From: a virus
Virus genome (UHGV): UHGV-1315295
DNA: 37,798 bases
Direction: 5' to 3' (one strand)
In this document: positions 5,261 through 36,187 of the stretch, in pieces
Position numbering within the stretch: position 1 is the first letter of the stretch
Layout of the letters: every line of letters starts with the position of its first letter
Position numbers and translations under genes: made by a program
Notes under the pieces: model-generated
What the model was told of the DNA's origin: nothing
The model's input: only the letters and a program-made list of their open reading frames with translations
The model's database searches: none

Positions 5261-5536
5261 ATGAAGACTTTGGTTCGCATTTCATCTAGTACCGACTATG
5301 ACGTTTACCCGTTGTTCATGATCAAGTGCGACGGGCTGAACGATGAAGAAATTCAAGCGGCAATTGAACGCAATCTAGTTGAATACACAGGAATGGATGC
5401 GGATTCTATTTATATCGATGATGACGGTGTTTGTTGGCACAACGGTAGCTGCTGGTACGTCGACGACACAATGCTGGTAAGCGATGAAGACGCGGCCCAT
5501 CTTGAGCGCATTTTGGGTATCAGCACTTTTGAGTGA
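5261..5536 (+). CDS. Hypothetical small acidic protein (91 aa)
   Basis: ATG 5261 preceded by AGGAG; ORF track frame; start context AGGAGAAAACACATG shared with other genes in the window. Confidence 0.45.
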   Translation: MKTLVRISSSTDYDVYPLFMIKCDGLNDEEIQAAIERNLVEYTGMDADSIYIDDDGVCWHNGSCWYVDDTMLVSDEDAAHLERILGISTFE

Positions 5537-5751: not shown

Positions 5752-6087
5752 ATGAAGAAAACAGCCCTGGTACTGGCGCTGCTCACTCTCCCCGTCTTTG
5801 CGGACACACATGTCTATGAGTGCGAAATGTTTGTGGTCGAAGCGAAAAACGGCCTGATCCGCAACGTCGTCAAAGCTAATTACGGCGCGATGGTTGTGGA
5901 CCGCGGCGAACAGTTTTATGTGGTACGCGATAATCGTGTCCTGTCTTCCCCGTTTCTCACTAAACGTAACGGCGAACTATCTGGCGTAGGTAAAGATAGG
6001 TTCGTTTACAACAAATCGGGTGATGTATACGGCGTTCACGCGAAGAACGACAGCTACCTTTTCGATGACTGCAAGGAGATTAGTTGA
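5752..6087 (+). CDS. Hypothetical secreted protein (predicted N-terminal signal peptide)
   Basis: MKKTALVLALLTLPVFA-DTH: charged N-terminus, hydrophobic core and A-x-A-like cleavage region; GGAG RBS. Confidence 0.5.
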   Translation: MKKTALVLALLTLPVFADTHVYECEMFVVEAKNGLIRNVVKANYGAMVVDRGEQFYVVRDNRVLSSPFLTKRNGELSGVGKDRFVYNKSGDVYGVHAKNDSYLFDDCKEIS

Positions 6088-6299
6088 TGGCGGTTACACT
6101 GACAGGTCTGGAAATCGAAAAAACAAGCGGCTACTGGCGTGCCAAAGGGTTCAAGCAGTCCGGCGTACTGGAACGACTGGAACGTGAAGATGGGTATATT
6201 GTTCACCAGCGACGTGAATGGCGCATGTACGATCCGGAAACAGGTAAGCTCGCAACGAAGGCCGGGACACTCTGGGGTCTGCTGAAGAAAATCCACTGA
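6084..6299 (+). CDS. Hypothetical protein (71 aa)
   Basis: ORF track; start overlaps the upstream stop, suggesting translational coupling with 5752-6087. Confidence 0.4.
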   Translation: MMAVTLTGLEIEKTSGYWRAKGFKQSGVLERLEREDGYIVHQRREWRMYDPETGKLATKAGTLWGLLKKIH

Positions 6300-24306: not shown

Positions 24307-24374
24307 TGCTGAATGCTTTTCTGCATTGTTAAAACAAATTGTTTAGACAAATGATTAATGAGAGTTAACAACAA

Positions 24375-24396
24375 GGGCCGCTGACGGCCCTTTTGT
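24375..24396 (+). terminator. Hairpin with U-tract (terminator or attenuator) 17 nt upstream of the Rha-family gene
   Basis: GGGCCG-ctga-CGGCCC followed by TTTTGT. Confidence 0.5.
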
Positions 24397-24412
24397 ACTG
24401 AATGGAAAACGT

Positions 24413-25228
24413 ATGTTTGAGGTAACTGCACACGCTCCCAGCACCACAGGCTTACATGCCAGGCCATCGATGACCAGTCAGGAGATCGCCGAAATGGTCG
24501 GCAGTCGCCATGACAGCGTAAAACGCACCATTGAAAGACTCGCTAAATCCGGCGTTATTACTTTTCCACCAATGGTGGAAAAGCCCACTGCCGGGCGTCC
24601 GGCTACGTTTTACTTGTTCGAAGCCGAACAGGGTAAGCGCGACAGTATCGTTGTCGTGGCACAGCTTTCTCCTGAATTTACCGCACGTCTTGTTGATCGG
24701 TGGAGAGAGCTTGAATCCATGTTTGCCTACCACGGAACGCCTGCTATTCCGCGTACCTATAAAGAAGCGCTGGTTCATTTGCTGCGCCAGGTTGAGGAAA
24801 ACGAGCGTCTGGAGAGTGAGAACGAGGCGTTGGGCGTAGCACTATCCAACGCAAAGCCAAAAGCCATTCTCATGGACACCATTTGCGGCACTGCTGATGA
24901 ACTTTATGGGTTGAATGAAGCCGGTCGCATTCTCGGCACGTCCGGGGCTGTTCTGGGGGCGCTGATGGATTCGCTGGGTGATGTGTATGTTAAGCGCAAA
25001 TACACCACAGTTAGTCGCCAGTTTCTCAAGATCTTCATTGACCGTGGATATGGCAAAAATGTTGTCATCGGAAACGGTCGCAACCAGGCCAAGTTCACCT
25101 TTAAAGGGCTTTGCTTTGCAGCTGTGAAACTAATTGCAGCCGGGTTGATTGCCTCCAGCGCCATTGAATATGAGCCGTGTCGTGAGCATGTCGAACGTGC
25201 AATGAAGGAATCCAAACGTCTTCATTGA
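24413..25228 (+). CDS. Rha-family phage regulatory protein (putative antirepressor)
   Basis: N-terminal MTSQEIAEMVGSRHDSVKRTIERLAKSG resembles the Rha domain; alternative start ATG 24470. Confidence 0.65.
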   Translation: MFEVTAHAPSTTGLHARPSMTSQEIAEMVGSRHDSVKRTIERLAKSGVITFPPMVEKPTAGRPATFYLFEAEQGKRDSIVVVAQLSPEFTARLVDRWRELESMFAYHGTPAIPRTYKEALVHLLRQVEENERLESENEALGVALSNAKPKAILMDTICGTADELYGLNEAGRILGTSGAVLGALMDSLGDVYVKRKYTTVSRQFLKIFIDRGYGKNVVIGNGRNQAKFTFKGLCFAAVKLIAAGLIASSAIEYEPCREHVERAMKESKRLH

Positions 25229-25336
25229 CCGTCAGTATGGACGTCCACCTTTATGTAGCGTTTGGCCACCTTTTCAGTCACGTCACAATAACACAATTGA
25301 GAAAACAACTTGTTTAAAAGCATAAGGAAAAAACAC

Positions 25337-25909
25337 ATGTGCGAAAAATGCAAAAAAACTAATGCCAAAGTTGAAAGCGTGATTAAAAAAGTTGGTGCGG
25401 CCGAACTGGTTGAGATCATGGGTCTTGTGGTTGGTCACGAAGACGACGCCTCCCCTATTGACCGCCTTTTCAGCGTTCTCAAGTTCTCAAGCATGATTGA
25501 TGATCCGATTGAAATTGTGATGCTGGCGCGTCATTTCGGCGAAGCGTATCTGGAAGAGAAAGAACGCGCCGACAAACTTCAGGCAACTCTGGAAATGGTA
25601 AGCAAGCCGAAGTGCTCACCGGATTCAGTCAAGGCAGATGAAACCAACGCCAGCAAAGATCGTGAAATCGCCGGGTTGAAGTCTTCTCTGGCGATGTTGC
25701 TGGCCGCCTTCAAACTGATGTCTTCCCAGGCTGGATTCAAAATGCCTGAGCTGAACAGCGACGATCCGATGGCCGTTCGCCAGCTGCTGGGGGCAATGGC
25801 CGACCAGCTTGACGACACCAAGAGCCGTCTTGAAGACATGATGCGCGAGCTGACCCACCGCCACAACCTGAACAAACAGCCGTACAAAACGCAGCACGTA
25901 CACCTCTAA
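25337..25909 (+). CDS. Hypothetical protein (190 aa)
   Basis: ATG 25337 with AAGGAAAAAACACATG context. Confidence 0.5.
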   Translation: MCEKCKKTNAKVESVIKKVGAAELVEIMGLVVGHEDDASPIDRLFSVLKFSSMIDDPIEIVMLARHFGEAYLEEKERADKLQATLEMVSKPKCSPDSVKADETNASKDREIAGLKSSLAMLLAAFKLMSSQAGFKMPELNSDDPMAVRQLLGAMADQLDDTKSRLEDMMRELTHRHNLNKQPYKTQHVHL

Positions 25910-25926
25910 TCTCTCACCTGCGTACA

Positions 25927-25947
25927 GGGGACGAAAGCCCCCTTTTT
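25927..25947 (+). terminator. Rho-independent terminator
   Basis: GGGG-acgaaag-CCCCC followed by TTTTT. Confidence 0.5.
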
Positions 25948-26022
25948 ACGTCTTAAATCAGCTGCAACGCCTGTGAATGCTGCTTTTACGCCTTTTTAGC
26001 TTTGAGAAAATAACACCAATAA

Positions 26023-26039
26023 GAAAACAATTTGTTTAA
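26023..26039. promoter_or_regulatory. Palindrome GAAAACAATTTGTTTAA (family 2) 10 nt upstream of ATG 26050
   Basis: Inverted repeat AAACAA/TTGTTT; one of 13 copies. Confidence 0.4.
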
Positions 26040-26049
26040 TGGTGCAATC

Positions 26050-27735
26050 ATGAATACAGCCCTTTCCATCATTGACGCTTTCACCCCAAACACTGATATC
26101 GACTACCGGCAGGAAATGAACGTCATTCACGAAATAGTGGTCGAGTGCGAGAAAGAGATCGCATTCATGCATCAGGTTCACGACTTCGTTTATGGCGACG
26201 AACGCCACAGCATGATTAACCGCTTGCTGCGGCTCAATCACCGGCCGGACGACGAGCGCACACGCTTTAACAGAACCTGGCTGGACAAAGTCGACCTGGA
26301 ATGGGTGAAACAAAATATCTGGGCCGAGTACTGGAAGAAGGTCACGGATATGACCAACGTTCTGCTGATCATGCCAGCATCCCGCCGCGACGAGTGGCGT
26401 GAACAGTTTATCGAGGGCAAGCAGGAAACGATCAAGACTGACAGAACTGGCTATCAGATGAAGGTTAAAGAGTTCGTTGGTGTACCTGAGTTCAAAGCAG
26501 AAACGGTCATACCAACGATGCTTAATTTGCTGAATGACAGGCACAAATATCTCTCTGAGCGCGTGTATGGCTTGTTTAAGGCGTTGAGTCCTGCTCACAA
26601 GACCAATAAAACGAACGGCTTCAGCGAACGTCTGATCATCGCCGACTGCATTTCCGATTTCTGGCGGGACAGCGTCAGCGTTAACTACCGGAAAGAGGAT
26701 TACATAGACGACCTGCGCGTCATGTTGCATTTCTTTGCACACAAAGAATTTATCACCATCAACCGCACGGCCGAGATGCTGTCAGCTGCGTATCGAGCAA
26801 ATGACTGCCAGACCGGCGACTGGATGAATGTCGACGGAAATCTGATGCGTGTGAAGATGTTTAAGAACGGCAACGTTCACTTTGAAATACATCCTGACGT
26901 AGCCTGGAAGCTGAATGAGGTGCTGGCTTACAGTATGCCCGCTGCAATTCCGGCTCCATGTCGTACTGCGCCCAAAACACGGGCACCAAAACAGTTCGGG
27001 TTAATCCAGAAGACGATCTCCGAGCCGGTGCGTACTGCGCTTCGCGACGGGCGATCTGGCAATGACAAACGCGTATGGTACTTCTCTGATTCCGGTCTCC
27101 AGAAGTCACAGGTGGAAGAGCTGGAGCGTACACTGAGCTTTATTGGCGGCGTGCAGGAGAACAAGCACTGGCAGTTCCCGTATGAGATCGGCCATACGCT
27201 CAATACGATTGTGGCCACCGGCTTAATACCGGATACAAAATCACACCAGTTCTACCCTACTCCGCGTTTGATAGCGGAGTACGTTGCCAGAGCCATCGAG
27301 CTGAAGCCAGGTGAGAAGCTGCTGGAGCCTGAAGCCGGGCGCGGAGATCTGCTGGCCTGCATCGACGCCAATCCGGAAGACGTTACCTGCATAGAAGTCG
27401 CACCTCTCTTCGCTGATATCCTGCTTGGCAAGGGGTACACAAATACGGTCTGCTGCGACTTCATGAAGTGGTCTGAGGACAACGCAGGTTATCAGTTCGA
27501 CAAAATCGTCATGAACCCGCCCTACTCTCTTGGCCGTCACAGAGAGCATACGCTGGCCGCGCTGGAGCATCTTAAAGTCGGCGGGCGACTGGTGGCTGTA
27601 CTGCCGGGTGATGCGCCAGTTCTGAACTGGATGTCGCTGGATAATTACGTTTATGCCAAAGGGAAGTCGTTTACTGACGAGTTTGAAGACACCGGGATTA
27701 CTGTCAGCGTATACGTTTTTAAACGCGTTAAATGA
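26050..27735 (+). CDS. DNA methyltransferase fusion protein: ~380-aa N-terminal domain of unknown function plus C-terminal N6-adenine methyltransferase domain
   Basis: C-terminal QFYPTPRLIAEYVA (motif X-like), LEPEAGRGDLL (AdoMet motif I-like), IVMNPPYS (motif IV); N-terminal 380 aa has no motif I recognise. Confidence 0.65.
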   Translation: MNTALSIIDAFTPNTDIDYRQEMNVIHEIVVECEKEIAFMHQVHDFVYGDERHSMINRLLRLNHRPDDERTRFNRTWLDKVDLEWVKQNIWAEYWKKVTDMTNVLLIMPASRRDEWREQFIEGKQETIKTDRTGYQMKVKEFVGVPEFKAETVIPTMLNLLNDRHKYLSERVYGLFKALSPAHKTNKTNGFSERLIIADCISDFWRDSVSVNYRKEDYIDDLRVMLHFFAHKEFITINRTAEMLSAAYRANDCQTGDWMNVDGNLMRVKMFKNGNVHFEIHPDVAWKLNEVLAYSMPAAIPAPCRTAPKTRAPKQFGLIQKTISEPVRTALRDGRSGNDKRVWYFSDSGLQKSQVEELERTLSFIGGVQENKHWQFPYEIGHTLNTIVATGLIPDTKSHQFYPTPRLIAEYVARAIELKPGEKLLEPEAGRGDLLACIDANPEDVTCIEVAPLFADILLGKGYTNTVCCDFMKWSEDNAGYQFDKIVMNPPYSLGRHREHTLAALEHLKVGGRLVAVLPGDAPVLNWMSLDNYVYAKGKSFTDEFEDTGITVSVYVFKRVK

Positions 27736-27755
27736 TAGGTAAGTACTTACCTAAT
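27735..27755. promoter_or_regulatory. Palindrome TAGGTAAGTACTTACCTA (family 1) overlapping the methyltransferase-fusion stop codon
   Basis: Perfect 18-bp palindrome. Confidence 0.4.
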
Positions 27756-27797
27756 TTATGTAAGAATATAGTGACTATATGATAAGAGAAAAAACAC

Positions 27798-28487
27798 ATG
27801 AGCAATCTTCCGTTAGAGCGTTTTAACGTCAAAAGCCATGCCGACTTTCCTTTCAAATTTGTAATGAGAGGTTATGCAGAGGAAGCAGTAGGCCAGATCA
27901 TCATTGACAAAGGCATTGTTAAGTTTGAAGGGGATTATGATGAATCCGCGAAAACATTCATAGACTTCGTTGCTAAACGTTGGAGCGAGCAATGGAGAGA
28001 CCTGGAAAAACGTGCTCGTGAATTTGATGCATTCATGTCTGCAATTGATACAGAAAAAACGGCTCTGGCTGCGGGTACTCCGTTAGATTTGGAGTCTCTG
28101 TTTAAAGGTGAAATGGCCTCTACGATGTTCGCAACCATGTTTGCCGGTGAGTTTGTTCGTAGCGGGGCCAGAAACTACCTGGAGCTGGGGTACGACGTTC
28201 CTGAAATGGGTGAGTTTACCGTCACCATTCAACGCAAAGAAGGTAAGACTCCTGGCGAACGTATCGCTGAACTTGAGGCCGTTGTGGATCAGCGTAACGG
28301 CGAGTGCGTCCGTTTGATTAATGAACGTGATGCGCTGCGCGAAGAGCAGCTAAACAAAGGCTCGAACACACGCGCGGCCGCAGACATCTACTTCCAGTTG
28401 GTTGAGGAATGCCAGATCCCGCCAGGTGGCTCTTTGGTCGAGTTCGTTCGCGAATTGCAGGAGAAAGCAGAGAGGTGCGCGGCATGA
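27798..28487 (+). CDS. Hypothetical protein (229 aa)
   Basis: ATG 27798 with GAGAAAAAACACATG context. Confidence 0.5.
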   Translation: MSNLPLERFNVKSHADFPFKFVMRGYAEEAVGQIIIDKGIVKFEGDYDESAKTFIDFVAKRWSEQWRDLEKRAREFDAFMSAIDTEKTALAAGTPLDLESLFKGEMASTMFATMFAGEFVRSGARNYLELGYDVPEMGEFTVTIQRKEGKTPGERIAELEAVVDQRNGECVRLINERDALREEQLNKGSNTRAAADIYFQLVEECQIPPGGSLVEFVRELQEKAERCAA

Positions 28488-28723
28488 ATGATCTGCTTGT
28501 CGAGCGAGTCTCCGCTTTTGTTAAGTCCCCGCTGAATAATCCCCTCACCCGCGGTGAGCAGATGGAACTGGCAAGGTGGTTTCTGCGTATCCATGAGCAG
28601 ATGGAAGTTTTTAAACAGTTGCCGGATCTGCCCATTACAGACGGCCAAATTCAGTGTGCCACTTCAGTACGGTCGACGATGACAACGACGCAAACCTGCT
28701 TTTCGTCAAATCCGAAATCATAA
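28484..28723 (+). CDS. Hypothetical small protein (79 aa); possibly the 5' part of a frameshifted gene
   Basis: ATGA overlap with the upstream stop; C-terminal residues look like out-of-frame read-through. Confidence 0.3.
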   Translation: MNDLLVERVSAFVKSPLNNPLTRGEQMELARWFLRIHEQMEVFKQLPDLPITDGQIQCATSVRSTMTTTQTCFSSNPKS

Positions 28724-28769
28724 AGTTGCGCAGGGAGAGAGAGAAATCGACGCAGAGCAGGCCCGCAAT

Positions 28770-28985
28770 ATGTGGGACGAGGCAGAAAACGCTGATGACG
28801 TAAAAGAAAGTTGCTGCTGTTTCGGTGTCGGTAACGAACTGCTGAGTCTGTTTGGTGACGATCCGTGGTATGCCGGTTGGCCAACGGTGCCAAACCCCAG
28901 ATACCAATACCTGGAACGTATTATGTACGCGGTACGTGATGGGCTGAAAGAGCTTCACAATCAGATGAGAGAAGCAATCGGTTAA
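28770..28985 (+). CDS. Hypothetical small protein (71 aa); possibly the 3' part of a frameshifted gene
   Basis: ORF track; its frame is open from 28683 without an ATG. Confidence 0.3.
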   Translation: MWDEAENADDVKESCCCFGVGNELLSLFGDDPWYAGWPTVPNPRYQYLERIMYAVRDGLKELHNQMREAIG

Positions 28986-29023
28986 GTGCTATAGTCAGGC
29001 GCTTTTATATTTATGGAGTGAAT

Positions 29024-29722
29024 ATGAAAAATATCCTACTGGCATCATTGTTGGTGGCATCGCCGGCTGTATTTGCAGCCAGCTTTGACTGCCAAAAGGC
29101 TTCGGCAGAAATCGAACACAAAATCTGCGATAACGAACGCCTGTCAAAATTAGACGAACAACTTAGCTCTACCTATTCCAACGCACTCAAAGCAAACCCG
29201 GGGGACGCAGACGCCTTAAAGACGGTTCAGCGTCAATGGGTAAGTATGCGTGGAAAACTCACTGGTGATAAGGCTCTGGAGCTGGCTTATCTAATCCAAA
29301 TTAATGGCCTCAAGAGTTTGGATGGTTCGGCCAGCACTGCGGTGGTCAATGAGACACCAAAGCCTGTGCAGAAACAGCCTGAAGTTCAGGAAAAGACAAG
29401 CAAGGCAGACACAAAGCAGGCTGAGAGCGGTAAAAAGCTAACTCTGGAGTCATTCCGAGCTAAGTATATTGAAGTTGACGGTGAATACTACAGCACGACA
29501 TCCCTTCCCAGAGGGAGTTCGTTCTTGTTCACCTGCGCAAGTCGTATCGCAGATGACCAGGTGAATATTTGGAAGAAGGTGGCAGCCAAAGAGGGCAAGA
29601 TCGATCTCTTCTTTGAACTTGAGAATCGAATACATACCGCAATGCTGAATGCCAATTTTCAGAAGCTAAATAGTGATTTAACTAAAACAGGCATTTGCGA
29701 TCTGATTACTGCTGTTCCGTAA
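29024..29722 (+). CDS. Secreted protein with LprI/DUF1311-like N-terminal domain
   Basis: Signal peptide MKNILLASLLVASPAVFA; FDCQKASAEIEHKICDNERLSKLDEQLSSTY resembles the DUF1311 (lysozyme-inhibitor LprI-like) signature. Confidence 0.55.
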   Translation: MKNILLASLLVASPAVFAASFDCQKASAEIEHKICDNERLSKLDEQLSSTYSNALKANPGDADALKTVQRQWVSMRGKLTGDKALELAYLIQINGLKSLDGSASTAVVNETPKPVQKQPEVQEKTSKADTKQAESGKKLTLESFRAKYIEVDGEYYSTTSLPRGSSFLFTCASRIADDQVNIWKKVAAKEGKIDLFFELENRIHTAMLNANFQKLNSDLTKTGICDLITAVP

Positions 29723-30167
29723 GCCAGATAAGGCCACTATTTGTGGCCTTAAACAATTTGTTTAATTAGTGGTGTAATTATTGGAATCCCAGGCGAACTA
29801 AATCCATTGGGCAGAACAGATCTTCCACACCTTCGATAGACACGCAGTCAGAGCGGCGTAATTGTTCTTCTGATTTGCCTTCCCCACTGATTTCTCTGAT
29901 TACTCCCGTTGCGCCATTCATTGCCACCATGACATGGCTGCCGATAGTGATAGCATTACGGTTTCGATCATACGTCTTTATCGTTTTCTCCTTTCACATG
30001 GGGCAAATCAGGTTTCAAAAATTGCCGTTTTCCATGTATATGCGATTTGCAAAATATCAATTTCCTAAACAAATTGTTTTCACCAGCTAGTTATTACACA
30101 CAGGCGAAGTTGACCGCGCTTCATATAAATATCACTGTTTATACATACAGTGTATAAGAGGAAAAAA

Positions 30168-30434
30168 ATGGGCGGAAAAGACTCAAGCTATCAGATCGTT
30201 TACAGAGGTGAGACGCTCGAAAACTTTAAACCGGGGCAGTATGTCTTCTTTCAACGAGCGAAGGAGTATGGCGGCGGATATTGGTTGGGCAGGACTCATG
30301 AAGATGGGTTCGAGTTTTTGCTGGAGGAGCCAACCTCGCTGGGAAGAGGTTTTGAGTTTCTGATAACTCACTCGAGCGTGGAGGCCAGATTTATGGAGTT
30401 CGTCGACGATGCGGACGACTTCAAACTCACCTAA
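30168..30434 (+). CDS. Hypothetical small protein (88 aa)
   Basis: ATG 30168 in frame with the track ORF; purine-rich RBS. Confidence 0.45.
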   Translation: MGGKDSSYQIVYRGETLENFKPGQYVFFQRAKEYGGGYWLGRTHEDGFEFLLEEPTSLGRGFEFLITHSSVEARFMEFVDDADDFKLT

Positions 30435-30519
30435 TCATCCCTTAAACATCTTGTTTTCTGCCTTTTGTTATTTGAGATAATAACAACAATTAGAAAACAA
30501 GTTGTTTAAGGAATCATCC

Positions 30520-30756
30520 ATGTTTGGAACCGCAAAAGAGCTTATCGAAAAGCTGGAGAACTACCCAGAAGACGAGCCGCTGCTGATGGTTGTGTGGCAT
30601 AAGGAAGACGTAGGCGAAGTACGCCCAGACCTTACTGACTATCAGTGCGCCCAGGTCTTGCGCAGAATCAAAGAGTGTCATGATGCCAATATCGGCGTGA
30701 ATTGGGACGTTATCTCTGACACGGCCGACATCCTGTTTCCGAAGGAGAAGGCATGA
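30520..30756 (+). CDS. Hypothetical small acidic protein (78 aa)
   Basis: ATG 30520 with AAGGA RBS immediately after the palindrome at 30493-30509. Confidence 0.45.
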   Translation: MFGTAKELIEKLENYPEDEPLLMVVWHKEDVGEVRPDLTDYQCAQVLRRIKECHDANIGVNWDVISDTADILFPKEKA

Positions 30757-31073
30757 TGCTGATATTGAAAGAATCCTATAAGACCGCAGTGATCAGCACC
30801 GCCCATGTCACGGCCAAAGACTCCGAGCTGCTGCCTGTCGTGTGCTTTGACCCGTTGACCGATCGCGGGTTGAATTGGGTACATGGTACACAGTACGGCT
30901 GGATTGTTCGTGCTGGAATGCGAGGGAATGACTGGAAAGAAGAGCTGCGTGAGTATGGCATTTCCGAAGAGACGATCTCCAACATACAGACCATAGTGGA
31001 TGCCGGGTATGATTCGGTACAATTTGACTGTGATGCGGAGCTGGTGGATGGGATGCCAGCATGGGATTGGTAG
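30753..31073 (+). CDS. Hypothetical protein (106 aa)
   Basis: ATGA overlap with the upstream gene. Confidence 0.45.
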   Translation: MMLILKESYKTAVISTAHVTAKDSELLPVVCFDPLTDRGLNWVHGTQYGWIVRAGMRGNDWKEELREYGISEETISNIQTIVDAGYDSVQFDCDAELVDGMPAWDW

Positions 31074-31088
31074 ATATAGCTACTAGCA

Positions 31089-31715
31089 ATGGCGGGAATA
31101 ATTACCTGGAAAGTTGATATCATATACCCGCTTGTATTTCAAAATGGAATGGATGTAATGGAAATCGATACTTTAGAAAAAAAATCAGTTAAAAACCTCT
31201 ACGCGTGGCTTATAGCAATACTGCCGTTTGTTGTCAGCGTCCCCCCTGCTGAGTACGACAATTACGTTATGGTGATTTCGCTCGTCATTGGGCTTGGACT
31301 GCTGGTCGCCGATCGCATGAATTTGACTGAGGCAGGCTATGAGCCACCATCATTCTTATGTGGGTTCTTTATCCCCCCTGTGTATCTCTGGAAACGAGCG
31401 ACGGTTCTTGGAAGTAACCGACTGCTGTTTATCGTATGGATTGTTGCCTTTGCTGCATCATTTTTCGTGTATAGCTTCAACACAGATTCAGCGCTTGAAG
31501 AAGCTGCTTGTCCTATAGTTACCACTATTCTGAAAGAAAATAACGGTTCAGAAGCATCTAAATGCATGAAGGTAACAATTCAGGACAAAGTGACGGACAA
31601 GTTCTACAAAGCCACGGCTACACTGGATAACGGTAATGACATTAACATCACTATCGAAATTATCGGTGACGAGAATTTCTACGTTCGCGTGCCTAATTAC
31701 TACCTAAACGACTAA
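31089..31715 (+). CDS. Hypothetical membrane protein (2-3 predicted TM segments)
   Basis: Hydrophobic segments LYAWLIAILPFVVSV, VMVISLVIGLGLLV, LLFIVWIVAFAASFFVY; start ambiguous (31089, 31149 or 31158). Confidence 0.45.
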   Translation: MAGIITWKVDIIYPLVFQNGMDVMEIDTLEKKSVKNLYAWLIAILPFVVSVPPAEYDNYVMVISLVIGLGLLVADRMNLTEAGYEPPSFLCGFFIPPVYLWKRATVLGSNRLLFIVWIVAFAASFFVYSFNTDSALEEAACPIVTTILKENNGSEASKCMKVTIQDKVTDKFYKATATLDNGNDINITIEIIGDENFYVRVPNYYLND

Positions 31716-32111
31716 CGGCTGCAACTCGTTGACATTGGCGGTCACAAATTGAGGATTTCTATAAGAGTCCGTTGATCGCCACTTCCCCCACCTCTCCAAC
31801 CTACCCCAGCCCAGGCGTGACAAGACATTTAAGCCAATTACAACCATAAGAAAACAAATAAATAACACGTCAACGAAAAGTCAACGCTTTCCCCTGATTT
31901 GGTCTAAAAAGTTGACGTTTTCGCAAGCCATCTCTTATACCCAAAATCCTGCGCACCAGAATCCATCTCCCTGCGACCAAAACGTCAAAAACGACTCGTG
32001 ATATCACTCAAAAACAGAAGCGCTCAGAAGCGCTCCCGTTGCGTTATATTGGGTATCTAAACAAGTTGTTTTCAGGCATAAGAAAACAAGTTAACCACCC
32101 CCACAGGAAAC

Positions 32112-32380
32112 CCAGAGACGCCATTACCCAATACACGGAGAAGAACAGCCAGAACGAAACCCCGGACAAACCCAGACAAGAACAGGAGCCGTCACAATCT
32201 CGTTTACCCACCATTACCCCGAAAGAGAGCGCAAATTCCTGAATAGCAGGGAACGCCATTACTTCATATGCGGAGAACAACTAAAGCGCCCTACTGCCAT
32301 TACCCACACTTTCATCATTTCACGTAAACGAAGAGAAAAGCGCACCTGCCATTACTCCATACACGGAGAAGAACAATCAC
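32112..32380. repeat. Four direct repeats of a ~25-bp unit GCCATTACyy.ATAyrCGGAGAAGAACA in a T-poor noncoding tract
   Basis: Copies start near 32112, 32253, 32290, 32344. Confidence 0.5.
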
Positions 32381-32670
32381 CAAAACGACGAGAACAACCC
32401 AGACGAAAACACAGAGAAGAACCACCTCAAGAAGAACGAAACCACATACGCCGGTAGAGAGTACAAACCACCCATTTCACCCACAGGAATAGTCGCCGTA
32501 TTGAGCGTTATCAGAGAGAAGGTTTATGCCCACATAAGAGAGAAAATTCGTGGGAGGTATAAGTGGGAAGGGAAGGAGGGGTATCGCTACTTTTTCCGCA
32601 TAAATTCAAGCCATAGTTTTCGTCCCCCGTAACGTCCCTTTCCACCCCTTCGGTCAGCCTTCGGGCCATC

Positions 32671-32850
32671 CAGGGAAAAGGCCATGTCCCTTTTCAGAAA
32701 CGGGAGCGTCGCCGCAGGGAAAAGGCTGGAGGTTTTCAGGGAAACGGTGGGAATCCCGCTATACGAACCGGGAAAAGGCTGGCTGCCGGTCGGGAAACGG
32801 GTACATCCCGGTACAGAGTGAGGGACGACTGCGAGAGCGGTGCGGGAAAT
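32671..32850. repeat. Six direct copies of C(A/C)GGGAAA(A/C)GG-type motif in GC-rich noncoding DNA
   Basis: Copies at 32671, 32715, 32737, 32768, 32791, 32843; related copies in other intergenic regions. Confidence 0.5.
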
Positions 32851-33185
32851 CTTCGGGAGTGCGCCTTGCTCTTCGCTCGCCTGAAAATCGCGAGGGAGTG
32901 TCGTTCCCTCTCGTGCAGCTGCTGAACTCCATTCTGCCAGACCATCCTCGGGTCTCAAGCGATTTCAGTAGGTTTTCGGGGAGAAGAAAATTCTGCCCAC
33001 CAGCCCTGCGGCGCGCGTAGAGCAGAATATCGTAAATACTGGTTCCCGTGTCGTTCCCGGATACTCACTACCCAGCCTGGCTTTCCCGACATAAAATCCT
33101 TTTTCGCCTTTGTCTTATTGCGATAATAACACCAACAAGTAAACAACATGTTTAGACGTTATATAAACGAAGTGAGGATGAAGAG

Positions 33186-33404
33186 ATGATTAAGATGCCT
33201 GTGACGGTTGAGGTGTGGGGCGTGGATTCCCTGGCTGAGTGTCTGAATGCAGTAGGGCCGGAGTTGTACCGCAAGTTGTGGTCGTTCGTCCCGGCAGAAG
33301 GGGAATCGCCCAAAGGGAAGGATATCTGGCACCTGCTGAGTGAAGATGAAAAGCGGGAGCTGGTGGGCGCGGTACACAGCGAGTTCCCGGACGACGAAGA
33401 TTAA
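33186..33404 (+). CDS. Hypothetical small acidic protein (72 aa)
   Basis: ATG 33186 with GAGGATGAAGAG RBS region. Confidence 0.45.
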   Translation: MIKMPVTVEVWGVDSLAECLNAVGPELYRKLWSFVPAEGESPKGKDIWHLLSEDEKRELVGAVHSEFPDDED

Positions 33405-33408
33405 GAGT

Positions 33409-33434
33409 GAGGCCACCAGCACGGTGGCTTTTGT
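33409..33434 (+). terminator. Rho-independent terminator
   Basis: GAGGCCACC-agcac-GGTGGCT followed by TTTTGT. Confidence 0.55.
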
Positions 33435-33516
33435 CGCTATTAACCTCCGGGGCAGCGCAGCACCGTAACGATATACTTTGTGGCCGTTTTCTTACTGGTA
33501 TTGTTTACGCAATTCA

Positions 33517-33533
33517 GAAAACAACATGTTTAA
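33517..33533. promoter_or_regulatory. Palindrome GAAAACAACATGTTTAA (family 2) overlapping the RBS of gene 33544
   Basis: Embedded in conserved block TTTACGCAATTCAGAAAACAACATGTTTAAGG. Confidence 0.4.
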
Positions 33534-33543
33534 GGATTGCTTT

Positions 33544-33873
33544 ATGTTTGCAAATATCGACATCAACCAAATCAAGAAAATGACTCAAAAAGAGTTTGAC
33601 CAGTTTTATGAGTTAGAAGGTTGGTCTTCCACGCTGATCAATTCGCGCTGGGTGCTTGAGCTGATGACTCGTGATGATGCTCCTGCTTTGATTATTTGCG
33701 ACATGGGTGAAGATGCTGACTTTATGGATATGAGCGAATTTTGTGTGGACACATACAACCGCAGCCAGAAGTACTACTTCACATGCGATAGCGAGAATGA
33801 CGTGATTTCTAAGCTCTATCTTCACCTTGTCCAGCATTGGGACGTGCAGGAATTCCTTGAGTTATTCGCGTAA
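33544..33873 (+). CDS. Hypothetical small acidic protein (109 aa)
   Basis: ATG 33544 with AAGGA RBS. Confidence 0.45.
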   Translation: MFANIDINQIKKMTQKEFDQFYELEGWSSTLINSRWVLELMTRDDAPALIICDMGEDADFMDMSEFCVDTYNRSQKYYFTCDSENDVISKLYLHLVQHWDVQEFLELFA

Positions 33874-34007
33874 GCCCAACCAAAGCCAGCACCGCCTGCT
33901 GGCTTAACTTCTCTGTAGCCGCAGGGAAGAACCACCTTTAGATAATTCATGTGCCTGAGCAATATGCTTTGTAGCCGTTTTTACACTGGTATTATTTACG
34001 CCATTGA

Positions 34008-34024
34008 GAAAACAATTTGTTTAC
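34008..34024. promoter_or_regulatory. Palindrome GAAAACAATTTGTTTAC (family 2) upstream of gene 34034
   Basis: Embedded in TTTACGCCATTGAGAAAACAATTTGTTTACGG, ~80% identical to 33481-33540. Confidence 0.4.
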
Positions 34025-34033
34025 GGAGTGGTG

Positions 34034-34345
34034 ATGAATACTTCATTGGTGCTGAGTCTTGCTGAAGGCCAGGAGAGAAAAGAAAAACCAACCTTAATGG
34101 GGCATCTCACATTGCTGGATATCGTAGCGAATGGGACTTCTATCCGTCTGTTTCGTGAAAAAGCCATTACCTTCGACGCGGGCAATTTTACGCGCTATGT
34201 GATGGTAGTTCGTCGCGAGCGTGGAAGAGGGTGGATGTCGGTCCAGAAAATGTGGCCAGAGGACCAGCTTGAACTGGCGCTGATGGAAGCCAACCGTGTC
34301 GCCCAACAAGAGATCCAACGAGCGTCTGTTCAGGCGGTAGCTTAA
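34034..34345 (+). CDS. Hypothetical protein (103 aa)
   Basis: ATG 34034, GGAGTGGTG RBS. Confidence 0.45.
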   Translation: MNTSLVLSLAEGQERKEKPTLMGHLTLLDIVANGTSIRLFREKAITFDAGNFTRYVMVVRRERGRGWMSVQKMWPEDQLELALMEANRVAQQEIQRASVQAVA

Positions 34346-34379
34346 ACATGTGCAAGCAGTAGTTAGTCGAATGTACGAC

Positions 34380-34407
34380 AGCCCCGCCAATCCTTCGGGG
34401 CTTTTTT
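34380..34407 (+). terminator. Rho-independent terminator
   Basis: AGCCCCG-ccaatcctt-CGGGGCT followed by TTTTTTG. Confidence 0.65.
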
Positions 34408-34466
34408 GTATTGTAAGTACTTACTTATGATAATAAAATTAAAAATTAAACACTAAGGAGAGTGAA

Positions 34467-34862
34467 ATGACCGTTAAACGCGAAAATCTGACCCTGGATA
34501 TGTATTATGCATCAGAGACGGAAAATGGAGACAAAGTTGCAAAAATTACAATTGTGCTACGCGATAATACCTCCGGCGAAGAAGTTCACACCAGTACCTT
34601 AACTCGCACCGGCGAGGCCACAAAGGGGAAATATTCGGTGCGTTACCAAAGCATCAGTAATGCTTCTGACCCTTTACTGATAAAACTGGAAACTCATTTC
34701 CGTGGCGCGGATCAGACGTTGTTTGAAAATTTGATGAAAAAGGTCGATGCGGTTTATACATCGAGTTTAAATACCAATAGTACCTGGATGGGACAACACG
34801 GTCTGCGAATAATCTCCGGCGAAAAGATCGACACCATTGTCCCTGAAAGCGTATTCGCTTAA
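34467..34862 (+). CDS. Hypothetical protein (131 aa)
   Basis: ATG 34467 with AAGGAGAG RBS. Confidence 0.5.
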   Translation: MTVKRENLTLDMYYASETENGDKVAKITIVLRDNTSGEEVHTSTLTRTGEATKGKYSVRYQSISNASDPLLIKLETHFRGADQTLFENLMKKVDAVYTSSLNTNSTWMGQHGLRIISGEKIDTIVPESVFA

Positions 34863-34871
34863 TCCTCTTTG

Positions 34872-34899
34872 AATGGCGCGTACCCCGCGCCATTTTCTT
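34872..34899 (+). terminator. Rho-independent terminator
   Basis: AATGGCGCG-taccc-CGCGCCATT followed by TTCTT. Confidence 0.5.
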
Positions 34900-34979
34900 A
34901 TGCCCGATAACAATTTGTTTTCTGCCTTATCTGATTTGTGAAAATGATTTCACTGAAGCAACTTAATAAGGAAACCATC

Positions 34980-35354
34980 ATGGGGCTTGATATCTACATC
35001 GAGACGCAGCCAAAAAACGATCTGAATAACGAGGCATCCAGAAAGCAGGTTGCTTACTTCCGTAAGTTCAATGCGCTCGTTGGGTGGATGGAGCGCAACG
35101 TAGGTGAAGTCGAAAATTGTGAGCTTTTAGAATTAACGATGAATGACATTTGTTTTCTGAAGGCTCATTTGATGCACATAAACGAAAGTAATTGCGAAGA
35201 GTACTTGCCTACCCAGGAAGGTTTTTTCTTCGGCAGTCAGGAGTACGATGAAGGTTACTGGCATGACGTGGGGGAGTTGAAAGAGATTGTGGAAGATCTG
35301 ATTAAGAACCACGACTTTCACAATAATAGACTGACCTTCTGCGCCTGGTGGTAA
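34980..35354 (+). CDS. Hypothetical acidic protein (124 aa)
   Basis: ATG 34980 with AAGGA RBS. Confidence 0.45.
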   Translation: MGLDIYIETQPKNDLNNEASRKQVAYFRKFNALVGWMERNVGEVENCELLELTMNDICFLKAHLMHINESNCEEYLPTQEGFFFGSQEYDEGYWHDVGELKEIVEDLIKNHDFHNNRLTFCAWW

Positions 35355-35356
35355 AT

Positions 35357-35500
35357 ATGGGCGATTTCAAGAAACGCCTGAAGGAGAGAGCCGAGATGGT
35401 CAGAAAGCGAAACGCCTCTTCTGTCATAAGATACGCAAGGCAGTTTAGTCGCAACAACAAATCAGTTGAGGAAAAGATCCTTAGCGTAATCGGGCGATAA
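35357..35500 (+). CDS. Possible small basic protein (47 aa)
   Basis: ATG 35357, GGTGG 6 nt upstream; below the ORF-track length cutoff. Confidence 0.25.
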   Translation: MGDFKKRLKERAEMVRKRNASSVIRYARQFSRNNKSVEEKILSVIGR

Positions 35501-35704
35501 TTATTAAGGCCACCAGCATTGGTGGCCTTAAATGACCATCCTGTTTCCCGCAGGCTAAAAACACCAACCTCTTACCTCCAGGCAACCGACAAACCCACCT
35601 GTTCCCGTCCGGCTACCGCAACTTTCCACTTTGACGCCTTATTCGTACAACGATAATTAACACCAACAAGAAAACAATTTGTTATTTACGATAAGGAATT
35701 AATC

Positions 35705-36187
35705 ATGAATTTTATCGCTACTGTAAACGCACCCGCACATGGCAATATCGCTGTAACGTTCTCTGATATTGAAAAACGAGTACTTGGTGCATGGCGCGAC
35801 AATGAGACGGTAGAACTGTCAGCACAAGAAAAATGCATTATTGCACGCGACATCATTTGCAATCGTCGTTACTCACGGGTAATTGAGAAAGCGTATGTCG
35901 CAAATTCTGGCTTCGGAACATTTGTCTTCCCGGTACGCTCCGGGCGATTCTGCCAGTCCAAGCTGATTGAGTTCGCTACGCAGATTTCTGTCTGGATTAA
36001 AACTCAATCGTCGTTCAAATTTTCCGACGATGAAGCAGTATCGCAGGGGATGCGGATCGCCAACAATGCAATAAAATGCAAAAACATTACGTATGCCGCT
36101 GGCGTTGACACATGGAAACTGTTTTGCGCTAACTTTATGCTGAATGTATACGCAAGCAACCGCATCCACATCCTTGATGGCGTGTAA
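35705..36187 (+). CDS. Hypothetical protein (160 aa)
   Basis: ATG 35705 with AAGGA RBS. Confidence 0.5.
   Translation: MNFIATVNAPAHGNIAVTFSDIEKRVLGAWRDNETVELSAQEKCIIARDIICNRRYSRVIEKAYVANSGFGTFVFPVRSGRFCQSKLIEFATQISVWIKTQSSFKFSDDEAVSQGMRIANNAIKCKNITYAAGVDTWKLFCANFMLNVYASNRIHILDGV

What the first reader, a model, noticed from the sequence alone, without database searches (positions are those of the whole stretch)
24331..35684. Family 2: palindromic operator-like motif AAACAAnnTGTTT, 13 copies confined to the 24-36 kb gene array
Copies lie at about 24331, 25301, 26023, 29751, 30067, 30443, 30493, 32058, 33140, 33517, 34008, 34907 and 35670. Most are 10-60 nt upstream of a start codon, several overlapping the RBS, and often sit in a longer conserved block (TTTACGCmATTsAGAAAACAA...TGTTTAmGG at 33490-33535 and 33985-34027; ATAATAACACCAAyAAGAAAACAA at 26011, 30475, 33122, 35651). 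Two copies (29751, 30067) flank a region with no + strand gene, and the motif is absent from the first 24 kb. This fits an inverted-repeat operator for one dimeric regulator controlling the array; the adjacent Rha-family protein is one candidate. A promoter core for a dedicated factor is the alternative.
Basis: seen in the sequence. Interest (0 to 1): 0.72.

Follow-up and report, generated by a model that had tools for sequence, protein, structure and literature searches.

The report
Repeated operator palindrome in phage-plasmid promoters
A 13-base palindrome (AAACAAnTTGTTT) sits at fixed positions in about a dozen near-identical promoter cassettes of an SSU5-type phage-plasmid and is conserved across hundreds of related plasmids, so it is most likely the binding site of one still unidentified regulator that switches these small genes off together.

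Summary
The window holds 11 exact and 2 one-mismatch copies of AAACAAnTTGTTT, against 0.03 and 1.4 expected, all outside coding sequence between 24.3 and 35.7 kb. The window is part of an SSU5/pHCM2-type phage-plasmid. In complete relatives (SSU5, Cyrano, a divergent Klebsiella plasmid) the same motif occurs 18-20 times. It also precedes terS, parA, dnaB, cobT and nrdB, so "confined to the array" holds only for this window.

Sites fall into two position classes. One lies 13-15 nt downstream of a -10 hexamer (6 of 8 with a TGn extension) and directly 5' of the ribosome-binding site. The other lies over the -35 region, always 51 bp upstream of a downstream site when both are present. The flanks are mirror images (AGA on the left or TCT on the right) and the central base is free.

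Best reading (about 0.55): a dyad-symmetric DNA operator in repeated sigma-70 promoter cassettes, bound by one repressor.

The Rha protein is not the binder, because Cyrano lacks it but keeps the motif.

The main rival (about 0.2): an RNA operator for the FljA-family protein encoded just beyond the window. It is the regulator-like gene whose presence best tracks the motif, and it is predicted to be a tandem Sm/Hfq-like fold.

The motif appears undescribed. It is a new member of a known kind.

The parts
24332..24344 (.). Perfect palindrome AAACAAATTGTTT, 68 nt upstream of the Rha/Ant gene (24413-25228). A terminator-like hairpin (24375-24397) lies between it and the gene.
   Evidence: the orthologous site in SSU5 is at 80773
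25303..25315 (+). Downstream-class (type A) site AGA-AAACAACTTGTTT. The -10-like CACAAT is at 25284-25289. The ATG of the phrog_5508 gene is at 25337.
26025..26037 (+). Type A site. The extended -10 TGAGAAAAT is at 26003-26011. The ATG of the DUF4942-type methyltransferase-like gene is at 26050.
29751..29763 (.). Perfect palindrome directly after the hairpin AAGGCCAC-TATTT-GTGGCCTT, between the converging LprI-family gene and the ydfZ-like gene. No promoter is evident. Paralogous to upstream-class sites in relatives (SSU5 85602, Cyrano 85818).
30067..30079 (-). Type A-like site oriented on the - strand (TGA-AAACAATTTGTTT). The -10-like TGTAAT is at 30098-30093. It lies upstream of the - strand ydfZ-like gene.
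30444..30456 (.). Upstream-class (type B) site AAACATCTTGTTT-TCT over the -35 region of the promoter at 30473-30481, exactly 51 bp upstream of the site at 30495.
   Evidence: the same 51-bp pairs occur in SSU5, Cyrano, the Klebsiella plasmid and L204
30495..30507 (+). Type A site. The extended -10 TGAGATAAT is at 30473-30481. The SD AAGGA follows directly. The ATG of the phrog_10258 gene (its SSU5 counterpart SSU5_104 is annotated DUF1380) is at 30520.
32059..32071 (+). Perfect palindrome at the head of an ORF-free repeat region. A degenerate second copy AGAAAACAAGTTAACC lies 25 bp downstream (32084-32096).
   Evidence: an intact 25-bp tandem pair sits at the homologous place in L202
33141..33153 (+). 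Type A site AAACAACATGTTT. The extended -10 TGCGATAAT is at 33119-33127. The ATG of the phrog_6757 gene is at 33186.
33519..33531 (+). Type A site. The extended -10 TGGTATTGT is at 33496-33504. The ATG of the phrog_7645 gene is at 33544.
34010..34022 (+). Type A site. The extended -10 TGGTATTAT is at 33987-33995. The ATG of the phrog_5125 gene is at 34034.
34908..34920 (.). Type B site TAACAATTTGTTT-TCT. It follows a terminator-like hairpin (34875-34891 plus T run) and precedes the extended -10 TGTGAAAAT at 34937-34945. The ATG of the phrog_7971 gene is at 34980.
   Evidence: (the profile covers the protein only from 34980)
35672..35684 (+). Type A site AAACAATTTGTTA. The -10 GATAAT is at 35652-35657. 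The ATG of the phrog_1641 gene is at 35705.

Best explanation
The motif is a dyad-symmetric DNA operator built into a repeated sigma-70 promoter cassette of an SSU5/pHCM2-type phage-plasmid. The ideal site appears to be the 19-bp palindrome AGAAAACAA-n-TTGTTTTCT.

Each small gene or short operon of the 24-36 kb accessory/early region has its own promoter, a weak -35-like T-rich/GCC block plus a -10 that usually carries the TGn extension. One copy of the palindrome lies about +7 to +19 from the predicted start site, another copy lies over the -35 region (centre about -38), or both are present 51 bp apart.

One trans-acting dimeric repressor is inferred to occupy these sites and block RNA polymerase. 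It is not encoded in the window and may even be host-encoded. This would keep roughly 20 transcription units of the whole element silent in the plasmid (lysogenic) state and release them together.

Shown: the enrichment, the two position classes, the mirror-image flanks, the free central base, the footprint conservation, and the family-wide regulon.

Inferred: the transcription start sites, repression as the mode of action, and the existence of a single binder.
For: (1) Enrichment. The window has 11 exact and 2 one-mismatch sites against 0.03 and 1.4 expected. Whole genomes hold 18-20 sites against 0.2-0.4 expected.

(2) Fixed geometry. In 33 downstream-class sites from the window, SSU5 and Cyrano, an invariant T, the last base of a -10 hexamer, lies 14 nt upstream of the palindrome. 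In the window, 6 of 8 + strand cassettes carry TGn plus hexamer.

(3) A second class of sites lies upstream of the -10, right after terminator-like hairpins. It is conserved in orthologous places across diverged genomes while the central base varies. Every two-site promoter has 51-bp spacing: 6 cases in 5 elements.

(4) Symmetry. Of 71 sites, 39 have AGA on the left, 11 have the mirror TCT on the right, and none has both. The central base is uniform: A15 C21 T19 G16.

(5) Footprint. In alignments of orthologous upstream regions only the -35-like block, the -10 block and the palindrome are conserved.

(6) Conserved motif. The same motif is found in elements whose proteins are only 35-75% identical.

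(7) Expression. In published LF82/Cyrano lysogen RNA-seq, motif-bearing genes are at the floor (about 5-13 where 5 is zero), except the parA operon (PMC9928086 supplement).

(8) RNA structure. As RNA the 13-mer has no stable fold (MFE 0; consensus -0.7 kcal/mol, no covariation).
Against: No DNA-binding protein with the right distribution was found. The small wHTH proteins, the RHH ParG-like protein, the ParB-like proteins and the CI-like HTH repressor are either also present in the two motif-less relatives or missing from some motif-bearing ones.

The regulator-like gene that best tracks the motif is an FljA-family protein predicted to have an Sm/Hfq-like fold, which points to RNA rather than duplex DNA.

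Most sites sit in the predicted 5' UTR directly before the SD, where an RNA operator would also sit.

Transcription start sites are predicted, not measured. A generic -35/-10 scan did not call these promoters.

Much of the cassette similarity could be shared ancestry rather than independent constraint.
Confidence: 0.55

Rival explanations
1. RNA operator. The motif acts in the 5' UTR of the mRNAs (AAYAAGAAAACAAnUUGUUUAAGGA...AUG). It is bound by the element's FljA-family protein, a tandem Sm/Hfq-like protein encoded about 0.3 kb beyond the window's 3' end. Binding next to the SD blocks translation and destabilises the mRNA, as Salmonella FljA does on fliC mRNA.
For: The SSU5_121/CYRAN_114 homologue is a full-length PF03614 protein (E 3e-81).

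FljA acts after transcription on fliC mRNA (PMC2652032).

It is the best-fitting of the three regulator-like genes found present in all motif-bearing elements tested (SSU5, Cyrano, Klebsiella plasmid, pMT1, 12 phage records) and absent from both motif-less syntenic relatives, Moellerella and Acinetobacter.

It is kept in 345 Klebsiella plasmids. That genus is normally non-flagellate (general knowledge), so fliC cannot be its only target.

It is expressed in the Cyrano lysogen.

The Salmonella/Citrobacter fliC 5' UTR carries CCAATAA and the 8-mer CAAGTTGT just upstream of its SD.
Against: The upstream-class sites lie outside any predicted transcript of the gene they precede, yet they are equally conserved and keep a fixed 51-bp spacing.

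The site at 29751 lies between converging genes.

The palindrome includes positions 6 and 8, which cannot pair in a hairpin. The hairpin is not stable and shows no covariation.

The Klebsiella plasmid's FljA-like protein is only 36% identical, yet the motif is unchanged.

The resemblance to fliC is only 8 of 13 positions and is not significant on its own.

The co-occurrence rests on two negative lineages and could be shared ancestry.
Confidence: 0.2
2. Dispersed centromere/operator sites of the partition system. The palindromes would be bound by the ParA-associated ribbon-helix-helix protein (SSU5_034/CYRAN_29) or by the ParB_N proteins, serving partition and silencing together, as with N15 SopB sites, IncP KorB or pSM19035 omega.
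For: A site sits at the parA promoter in SSU5, Cyrano and the Klebsiella plasmid.

The parA operon is moderately expressed in the lysogen, as expected for autoregulation.

The small protein has an RHH-like sequence pattern and a weak hit to the RHH aCcr1 family.

It is at least 90% identical in about 736 plasmids.

A 13-bp 6-1-6 palindrome has the same format as the KorB operator (general knowledge).
Against: pMT1 keeps 6 sites without this protein.

Moellerella has a partial homologue and both ParB_N proteins but no motif. Acinetobacter has both ParB_N proteins but no motif.

The RHH protein is only 52% identical in the Klebsiella plasmid although the motif is unchanged.

The ParB_N operon is silent in the lysogen.
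Confidence: 0.07
3. No dedicated binder. The palindrome is simply part of a promoter/translation-start cassette that has been copied many times. Its main consequence is to provide homology for cassette shuffling, as PeSL cassettes do in T4-type phages.
For: The cassettes are clearly paralogous over about 60 bp. The window's similarity to SSU5 ends at about 34.93 kb, at the cassette of site 34908, where similarity to the Cyrano group takes over.
Against: Within cassettes the palindrome is the best conserved block, while spacers and the central base drift.

It also occurs with unrelated promoter contexts (parA, dnaB, cobT, nrdB, terS) and in two orientations.

It is unchanged between elements with about 77% DNA identity or less.
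Confidence: 0.06
4. Activator or dedicated-factor promoter element. The palindrome would recruit a phage factor that turns these promoters on.
For: The -35-like elements are weak. A second promoter flavour (TTTAAA about 10 nt upstream of the site) precedes terS, nrdB and cobT. Sites centred near -38 could in principle act like class II activator sites.
Against: Most sites lie downstream of the -10 and 11-32 nt from the ATG, a position from which activation is not known to work. No phage RNA polymerase or sigma factor was seen in the SSU5 or Cyrano annotation.
Confidence: 0.05
5. Operator of the adjacent Rha-family protein (window 24413-25228).
For: Rha has an N-terminal winged-helix/Rha domain, and a site lies upstream of its gene.
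Against: Cyrano has 18 sites and no Rha homologue. PHROGs places the protein in the Ant anti-repressor family. A terminator-like hairpin separates the site from the gene.
Confidence: 0.03

Closest known systems
Phage-plasmid P1 C1 repressor with its many dispersed operators
   Same: A phage-plasmid in which one repeated operator sequence sits at many scattered promoters and overlaps core promoter elements. This ties replication, accessory and late functions into one regulon (P1 annotation; general knowledge).
   Different: P1 operators are asymmetric 17-mers of unrelated sequence. Here the site is a 6-1-6 palindrome. The binder is unknown. The first 50 kb of P1 holds no copy of this motif.
Global repressor networks of plasmids: IncP KorA/KorB operators, R388 ArdK/StbA repeats, pSM19035 omega heptads
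   Same: Short palindromic or repeated operators recur at nearly every promoter of maintenance and establishment genes. Each small gene has its own repressed promoter. KorB's operator is also a 13-bp 6-1-6 palindrome (general knowledge).
   Different: The sequence is different. The ParB-like and RHH proteins of this element do not track the motif. No link to conjugation.
Salmonella FljA and the fliC mRNA 5' UTR
   Same: The element encodes an FljA-family protein. The motif lies where FljA's target lies, just 5' of the SD. It shares the 8-mer CAAGUUGU with the Salmonella fliC leader.
   Different: FljA has one known target. Here there would be about 20. Many sites lie outside predicted 5' UTRs. 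Binding was not tested.
PeSL (promoter-early stem-loop) cassettes of T4-type phages
   Same: Reiterated promoter cassettes in front of small ORFs in a plastic genome region. One mosaic junction coincides with a cassette.
   Different: PeSLs are described as recombination modules without a dedicated operator. Here an invariant palindrome is the core and also occurs outside the cassettes.

Membership tests
Dispersed transcriptional operator regulon (P1 C1 / IncP Kor type) | The same short sequence recurs at many promoters, far above chance | tested here: met
   13 sites in the window against 0.03-1.4 expected. 18-20 sites per complete relative against 0.2-0.4 expected.
Dispersed transcriptional operator regulon (P1 C1 / IncP Kor type) | Sites overlap core promoter elements or the start site | tested here: inconclusive
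   The distance to -10-like hexamers is fixed (invariant T at -14; TGn in 6 of 8) and a second class lies over the -35 region. However, the start sites are predicted only, and the generic scan missed these promoters.
Dispersed transcriptional operator regulon (P1 C1 / IncP Kor type) | Dyad symmetry consistent with a dimeric DNA-binding protein | tested here: met
   6-1-6 palindrome, mirror-image flanks AGA/TCT, uniform central base.
Dispersed transcriptional operator regulon (P1 C1 / IncP Kor type) | An identified cognate DNA-binding repressor | tested here: not met
   No HTH or RHH candidate has a distribution that matches the motif.
FljA-type 5' UTR translational operator | A PF03614 protein encoded by the same element | tested here: met
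   Present in all 12 SSU5-like phage records and 835 plasmids. By synteny it lies just beyond the window's end, so it is not in the window itself.
FljA-type 5' UTR translational operator | The site lies within the 5' UTR next to the SD | tested here: inconclusive
   True for the downstream-class sites if the predicted start sites are right. False for the upstream-class sites and for 29751.
FljA-type 5' UTR translational operator | A stable or covarying RNA structure, or sequence identity with the fliC operator | tested here: not met
   MFE 0 for the 13-mer, z-scores not significant. Consensus -0.7 kcal/mol with no covariation. Only an 8-mer is shared with the fliC leader.
FljA-type 5' UTR translational operator | Direct binding of the protein to the RNA | not testable with these tools
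   Needs EMSA, CLIP or similar.
parS / KorB-type centromere-operator sites | The motif co-occurs with its ParB or centromere-binding protein | tested here: not met
   The ParB_N proteins are present in both motif-less elements and a partial RHH homologue in Moellerella only. The RHH protein is absent from pMT1, which keeps sites.
Intrinsic terminators or generic REP-like repeats | G+C-rich stem followed by a T run, or location at gene 3' ends irrespective of promoters | tested here: not met
   The stem is A/T-rich and the fold is not stable. Sites are tied to -10 elements and start codons.
Rha-controlled operator | The Rha protein is present wherever the motif is | tested here: not met
   Cyrano has 18 sites and no Rha.

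The most novel reading that the evidence does not exclude
The motif is the RNA (or single-strand) recognition element of the FljA-family tandem Sm/Hfq-like protein. That protein would be a global post-transcriptional repressor of about 20 operons in SSU5-type phage-plasmids. The flagellar phase-variation repressor FljA of Salmonella would then be a domesticated single-target offshoot of a phage-plasmid regulator.
Probability: 0.2. Interest if true: 0.8.

Novelty: new member of a known kind. Interest (0 to 1): 0.55.

Why it matters
SSU5/pHCM2-type phage-plasmids are common in Escherichia, Salmonella, Klebsiella, Enterobacter and Yersinia pestis (pMT1). About 800 records in PLSDB carry this region. 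They carry resistance genes, yet nothing on how SSU5-type elements control their genes turned up in my searches, and no paper in the searchable library contains the motif.

A single conserved operator in front of about 20 transcription units, including terS, parA, the helicase, nrdB and the whole accessory array, gives a direct experimental handle on that control circuit. It defines the regulon, predicts the promoters, and narrows the search for the regulator.

If the binder is the FljA-family Sm-like protein, the finding would also explain where the phase-variation repressor came from.

Tried and rejected
Rfam and tRNA scans of the window found nothing.

The generic promoter scan did not call the cassettes. 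It found fewer promoter-like sites than in shuffles.

A scan of viral contigs for GAAAACAANNTGTTTA returned mostly single chance hits. Only SSU5-like contigs had many copies, so I did not use it further.

The primary FljA papers (Yamamoto and Kutsukake 2006; Aldridge 2006) are not held, so the mapped FljA site on fliC mRNA could not be read. I fetched the fliC leaders from genomes instead.

An apparent outer stem that sequesters the SD in two paralogous leaders (33519, 34010) did not hold up in a 10-sequence alignment.

Rejected as universal binder:
- Rha: absent from Cyrano.
- The 70-aa wHTH (SSU5_046/CYRAN_37): missing from 5 motif-bearing phage records and from pMT1.
- Cra-like (window 6084-6299): the P1 homologue is as close as the Klebsiella one, P1 shows no motif, and the low-confidence all-beta model has no HTH.
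- CI-like HTH (CYRAN_45): its own control region lacks the motif and carries the other palindrome family instead. It is also present in the motif-less elements with a similar recognition helix.

Sequence searches of the 88-aa and RHH-like candidates against solved structures gave nothing.

From memory, no known Enterobacterial transcription factor consensus matches. The nearest are KdgR (AAACA-n-TGTTT) and CusR (ACAA-nn-TTGT), both with different spacing.


Full report
**1. The observation**

A search for AAACAANNTGTTT finds 11 distinct exact sites in the 37.8-kb window. They are at 24332, 25303, 26025, 29751, 30067, 30444, 30495, 32059, 33141, 33519 and 34010, against 0.03 expected from dinucleotide shuffles. 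Allowing one mismatch adds 34908 and 35672, against 1.4 matches expected. No site with up to two mismatches to AAACAAnTTGTTT lies in the first 24 kb.

All 13 sites lie outside predicted genes. Nine are 11-68 nt upstream of a start codon that PHROG profiles support. The longer shared blocks exist, though one only loosely. The core is best written as a 6-1-6 palindrome, AAACAA-n-TTGTTT.

**2. What the window is**

The window is 89-94% identical to Salmonella phage SSU5 and about 98% identical to ~107-113 kb plasmids of E. coli and E. fergusonii. It is therefore a piece of an SSU5/pHCM2-type phage-plasmid, running from the recombination/replication genes to just short of the gene cluster that precedes the terminase.

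The 24-36 kb stretch is the family's variable accessory/early region. It holds a Rha/Ant protein, a DUF4942-type methyltransferase-like protein, an LprI-family protein, YdfZ, a gene whose SSU5 counterpart is annotated DUF1380, and many PHROG families of unknown function.

**3. The motif in complete relatives**

I assembled complete sequences of four relatives: SSU5, the LF82 phage-plasmid Cyrano, a divergent Klebsiella plasmid (NZ_CP101792.1) and Y. pestis pMT1.

- With up to one mismatch they carry 20, 18, 20 and 6 sites. Chance expectation is 0.2-0.4 for the first three; none was computed for pMT1.
- Besides the accessory array, sites precede the small terminase gene (two sites 25 bp apart, followed by a terminator-like hairpin), parA, the DnaB-type helicase, cobT and nrdB.
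- Two further elements fetched through their FljA-like gene show the same motif in the same contexts. Their FljA-like proteins are only 57-59% identical to Cyrano's.

"Confined to the array" is therefore a consequence of where the window was cut.

**4. Anatomy**

Aligning 33 sites from the window, SSU5 and Cyrano, oriented by the downstream gene, shows more than the palindrome.

- AGA precedes the palindrome almost invariably.
- An invariant T lies 14 nt upstream, as the last base of a -10-like hexamer (GATAAT, GAAAAT, TATTAT, CACAAT).
- In the window, 6 of 8 + strand cassettes carry the TGn extension: TGAGAAAAT, TGAGATAAT, TGCGATAAT, TGGTATTGT, TGGTATTAT, TGTGAAAAT.
- Further upstream lies a T-rich/GCC block in the -35 position.

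With a start about 7 nt after the hexamer, the palindrome covers roughly +7 to +19 and ends 1-3 nt before the Shine-Dalgarno sequence. I call this type A.

A second class, type B, lies upstream of such a -10 element (19 nt from palindrome end to hexamer, centre about -38), usually right after a terminator-like hairpin of the preceding gene. It is followed by TCTGCC. Examples are window 30444 and 34908, SSU5 85602, 88319 and 93662, Cyrano 85818, 93114 and 97190, and several in the Klebsiella plasmid.

Where a promoter has both classes, the spacing is 51 bp in all six cases seen. Tandem pairs are 25 bp apart in six cases.

Site 30067 is a type A site on the - strand, upstream of the ydfZ-like gene. 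Site 29751 looks like a type B site that has lost its promoter. Site 24332 is followed by a terminator-like hairpin before the Rha gene.

**5. Symmetry**

Over 71 sites in four sequences, 39 have AGA on the left, 11 have the mirror image TCT on the right, and none has both. The central base is uniform: A15, C21, T19, G16.

The simplest reading is an ideal 19-bp palindrome, AGAAAACAA-n-TTGTTTTCT. One outer arm is overwritten by the SD in type A sites and by the preceding terminator tail in type B sites.

**6. Conservation**

In alignments of orthologous upstream regions from five elements, the conserved blocks are the -35-like block, the -10 block and the palindrome. The spacers and everything further upstream diverge. 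Orthologous type B sites keep the core while the central base and flanks change.

**7. DNA or RNA?**

For DNA:
- the dyad symmetry includes positions 6 and 8, which could not pair in a hairpin;
- the flanks are mirror images;
- type B sites and 29751 lie outside the predicted transcripts of the genes they precede;
- the 51-bp spacing brackets the polymerase footprint;
- the 13-mer has no stable RNA fold (MFE 0);
- leader folds are no better than shuffles, and a 10-leader alignment gives only the 5-bp A/U stem at -0.7 kcal/mol with no covariation.

Published RNA-seq of the Cyrano lysogen shows motif-bearing genes at the floor: values of 5-13 where 5 means zero and the element's median is 9.8. 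The exception is the parA operon at 50-90 (PMC9928086 supplement). This fits repression, although it does not exclude mRNA decay.

For RNA: type A sites lie exactly where a translational operator would, and the next section points to an RNA-binding protein.

**8. Who binds?**

*Rha is excluded as a universal binder.* Cyrano has no homologue.

*Distribution test.* I compared candidate regulators across motif-bearing elements (SSU5, Cyrano, the Klebsiella plasmid, pMT1) and two syntenic relatives that lack the motif. These are the Moellerella plasmid NZ_CP093251.1 and the Acinetobacter plasmid CP031744.1, each with only three one-mismatch chance hits.

- An all-ORF comparison found only three regulator-like genes present in SSU5, Cyrano and the Klebsiella plasmid and absent from both motif-less elements. 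They are a 70-aa winged-helix-like protein, the Cra-like operon, and an FljA-family protein.
- The 70-aa protein is missing from five motif-bearing phage records and from pMT1.
- Cra-like is equally distant in P1, whose first 50 kb has no site, and it models as a low-confidence all-beta protein.
- The 88-aa protein, both ParB_N proteins and the CI-like HTH repressor also occur in the motif-less elements. The ParG-like ribbon-helix-helix protein has only a partial homologue in Moellerella and none in Acinetobacter, and it is missing from pMT1, which keeps sites.
- The CI-like repressor more likely uses the other palindrome family of these elements.

*The FljA-family protein.* SSU5_121/CYRAN_114 (PF03614, E 3e-81) is encoded about 0.3 kb beyond the window's end. 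It is present in all 12 SSU5-like phage records and in 835 plasmids, including 345 from Klebsiella. It is expressed in the lysogen.

Against this candidate, the Klebsiella plasmid's version is only 36% identical while the motif is unchanged. The distribution argument also rests on two negative lineages.

**9. Verdict on mechanism**

I put about 0.55 on a DNA operator in reiterated sigma-70 promoter cassettes, bound by one repressor that is not in the window and is possibly host-encoded. I put about 0.2 on an RNA operator for the FljA-like protein. The remainder is split between partition-linked sites, a cassette without a dedicated binder, an activator site, and Rha.

The two leading models make opposite predictions for transcriptional versus translational fusions and for mutation of the upstream sites. 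They are easy to separate at the bench.

**10. Comparison with known systems and novelty**

The closest analogues in function are the dispersed C1 operators of phage-plasmid P1 and the global repressor networks of plasmids (IncP KorA/KorB, R388 ArdK, pSM19035 omega). The repeated cassette organisation in a plastic region recalls the PeSL cassettes of T4-type phages. One mosaic junction in the window, where similarity to SSU5 ends at about 34.93 kb, coincides with a cassette.

None of the four 13-mer variants occurs in any searchable paper. The phage-plasmid literature I could read says nothing about SSU5 regulation.

I rate it a new member of a known kind. It is a real, conserved and apparently undescribed regulon signal, useful to specialists but not surprising in kind unless the FljA link proves true.

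Noticed in passing
window 5233, 15091, 22268, 27740, 34414: A second, unrelated palindrome family, GATAGG-TAAGTRCTTA-YCTAT, lies upstream of genes. Cyrano has copies next to its CI-like repressor gene. The Acinetobacter relative has 23 copies of TAAGCRCTTA or TAAGTGCTTA, most of them embedded in promoters of the form ATTATTAG-...-CTATAAT. It is probably the operator or promoter signal of the conserved CI-like regulator.
   Followed up: partly
window 32100-33050: About 1 kb with no convincing ORF and strong A-over-T skew (0.25). It holds five GCCATTAC-type repeats (32120-32348) and five GGGAAA(A/C)GG repeats (32673-32792). Site 32059 and a degenerate copy 25 bp downstream precede it. There is no Rfam match. 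It could be a non-coding RNA, an origin-like region or a binding array.
   Followed up: partly
window 29778-30079 (- strand): The ydfZ-like gene is the only - strand gene in the array and is bracketed by two sites. Its ORF (50 aa) lacks the first 16-17 positions of the Pfam/PHROG profiles. A 6-codon mini-ORF (MENGNF) lies between the site and the gene, as in SSU5.
   Followed up: no
window about 34900-34950: Mosaic junction. Similarity to SSU5 ends at about 34931, and similarity to the Cyrano/CMS-2020a group runs from 32328 to the end of the query. The switch coincides with the promoter cassette of site 34908, which suggests the cassettes serve as recombination joints.
   Followed up: partly
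relatives: SSU5 96900-97415 (L001 about 41900-42416), Cyrano 100780-101301: The FljA family (PF03614, 'repressor of phase-1 flagellin') is predicted to be a tandem Sm/Hfq-like fold with an invariant N-terminal ITYG..AEVWPRDY motif. It is a core gene of SSU5-type phage-plasmids, including those of Klebsiella.
   Followed up: yes
window 24375-24397; relatives: SSU5 94-125 (L002): For the Rha gene and for the small terminase gene, the motif is followed by a G+C-rich hairpin plus T run before the start codon. This could indicate attenuation or antitermination control of these two units.
   Followed up: no
SSU5 about 103,140-103,195 (L001 about 48,140-48,195); Cyrano, same relative position upstream of terS: A long near-perfect inverted repeat, CCTGCTTCCGTATATATAAATA...TATTAAATATATACGGAAGCAGG, lies between the 88-aa protein gene and the terS sites. 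It may be a packaging or late-control signal. It is outside the window.
   Followed up: no
L209-L211 (Moellerella plasmid NZ_CP093251.1): This syntenic relative lacks the motif and the FljA-like gene. It carries a different reiterated element, GCCTAGCTCCCATA(G/A)TATTTA, in 8 copies, some in divergent pairs.
   Followed up: partly
Cyrano and Klebsiella plasmid (whole genomes): The start context AAGGAAAACACATG recurs about 9-13 times, a conserved SD-to-ATG block shared by many genes. It is also visible in the window at 25337 and near 5270.
   Followed up: no
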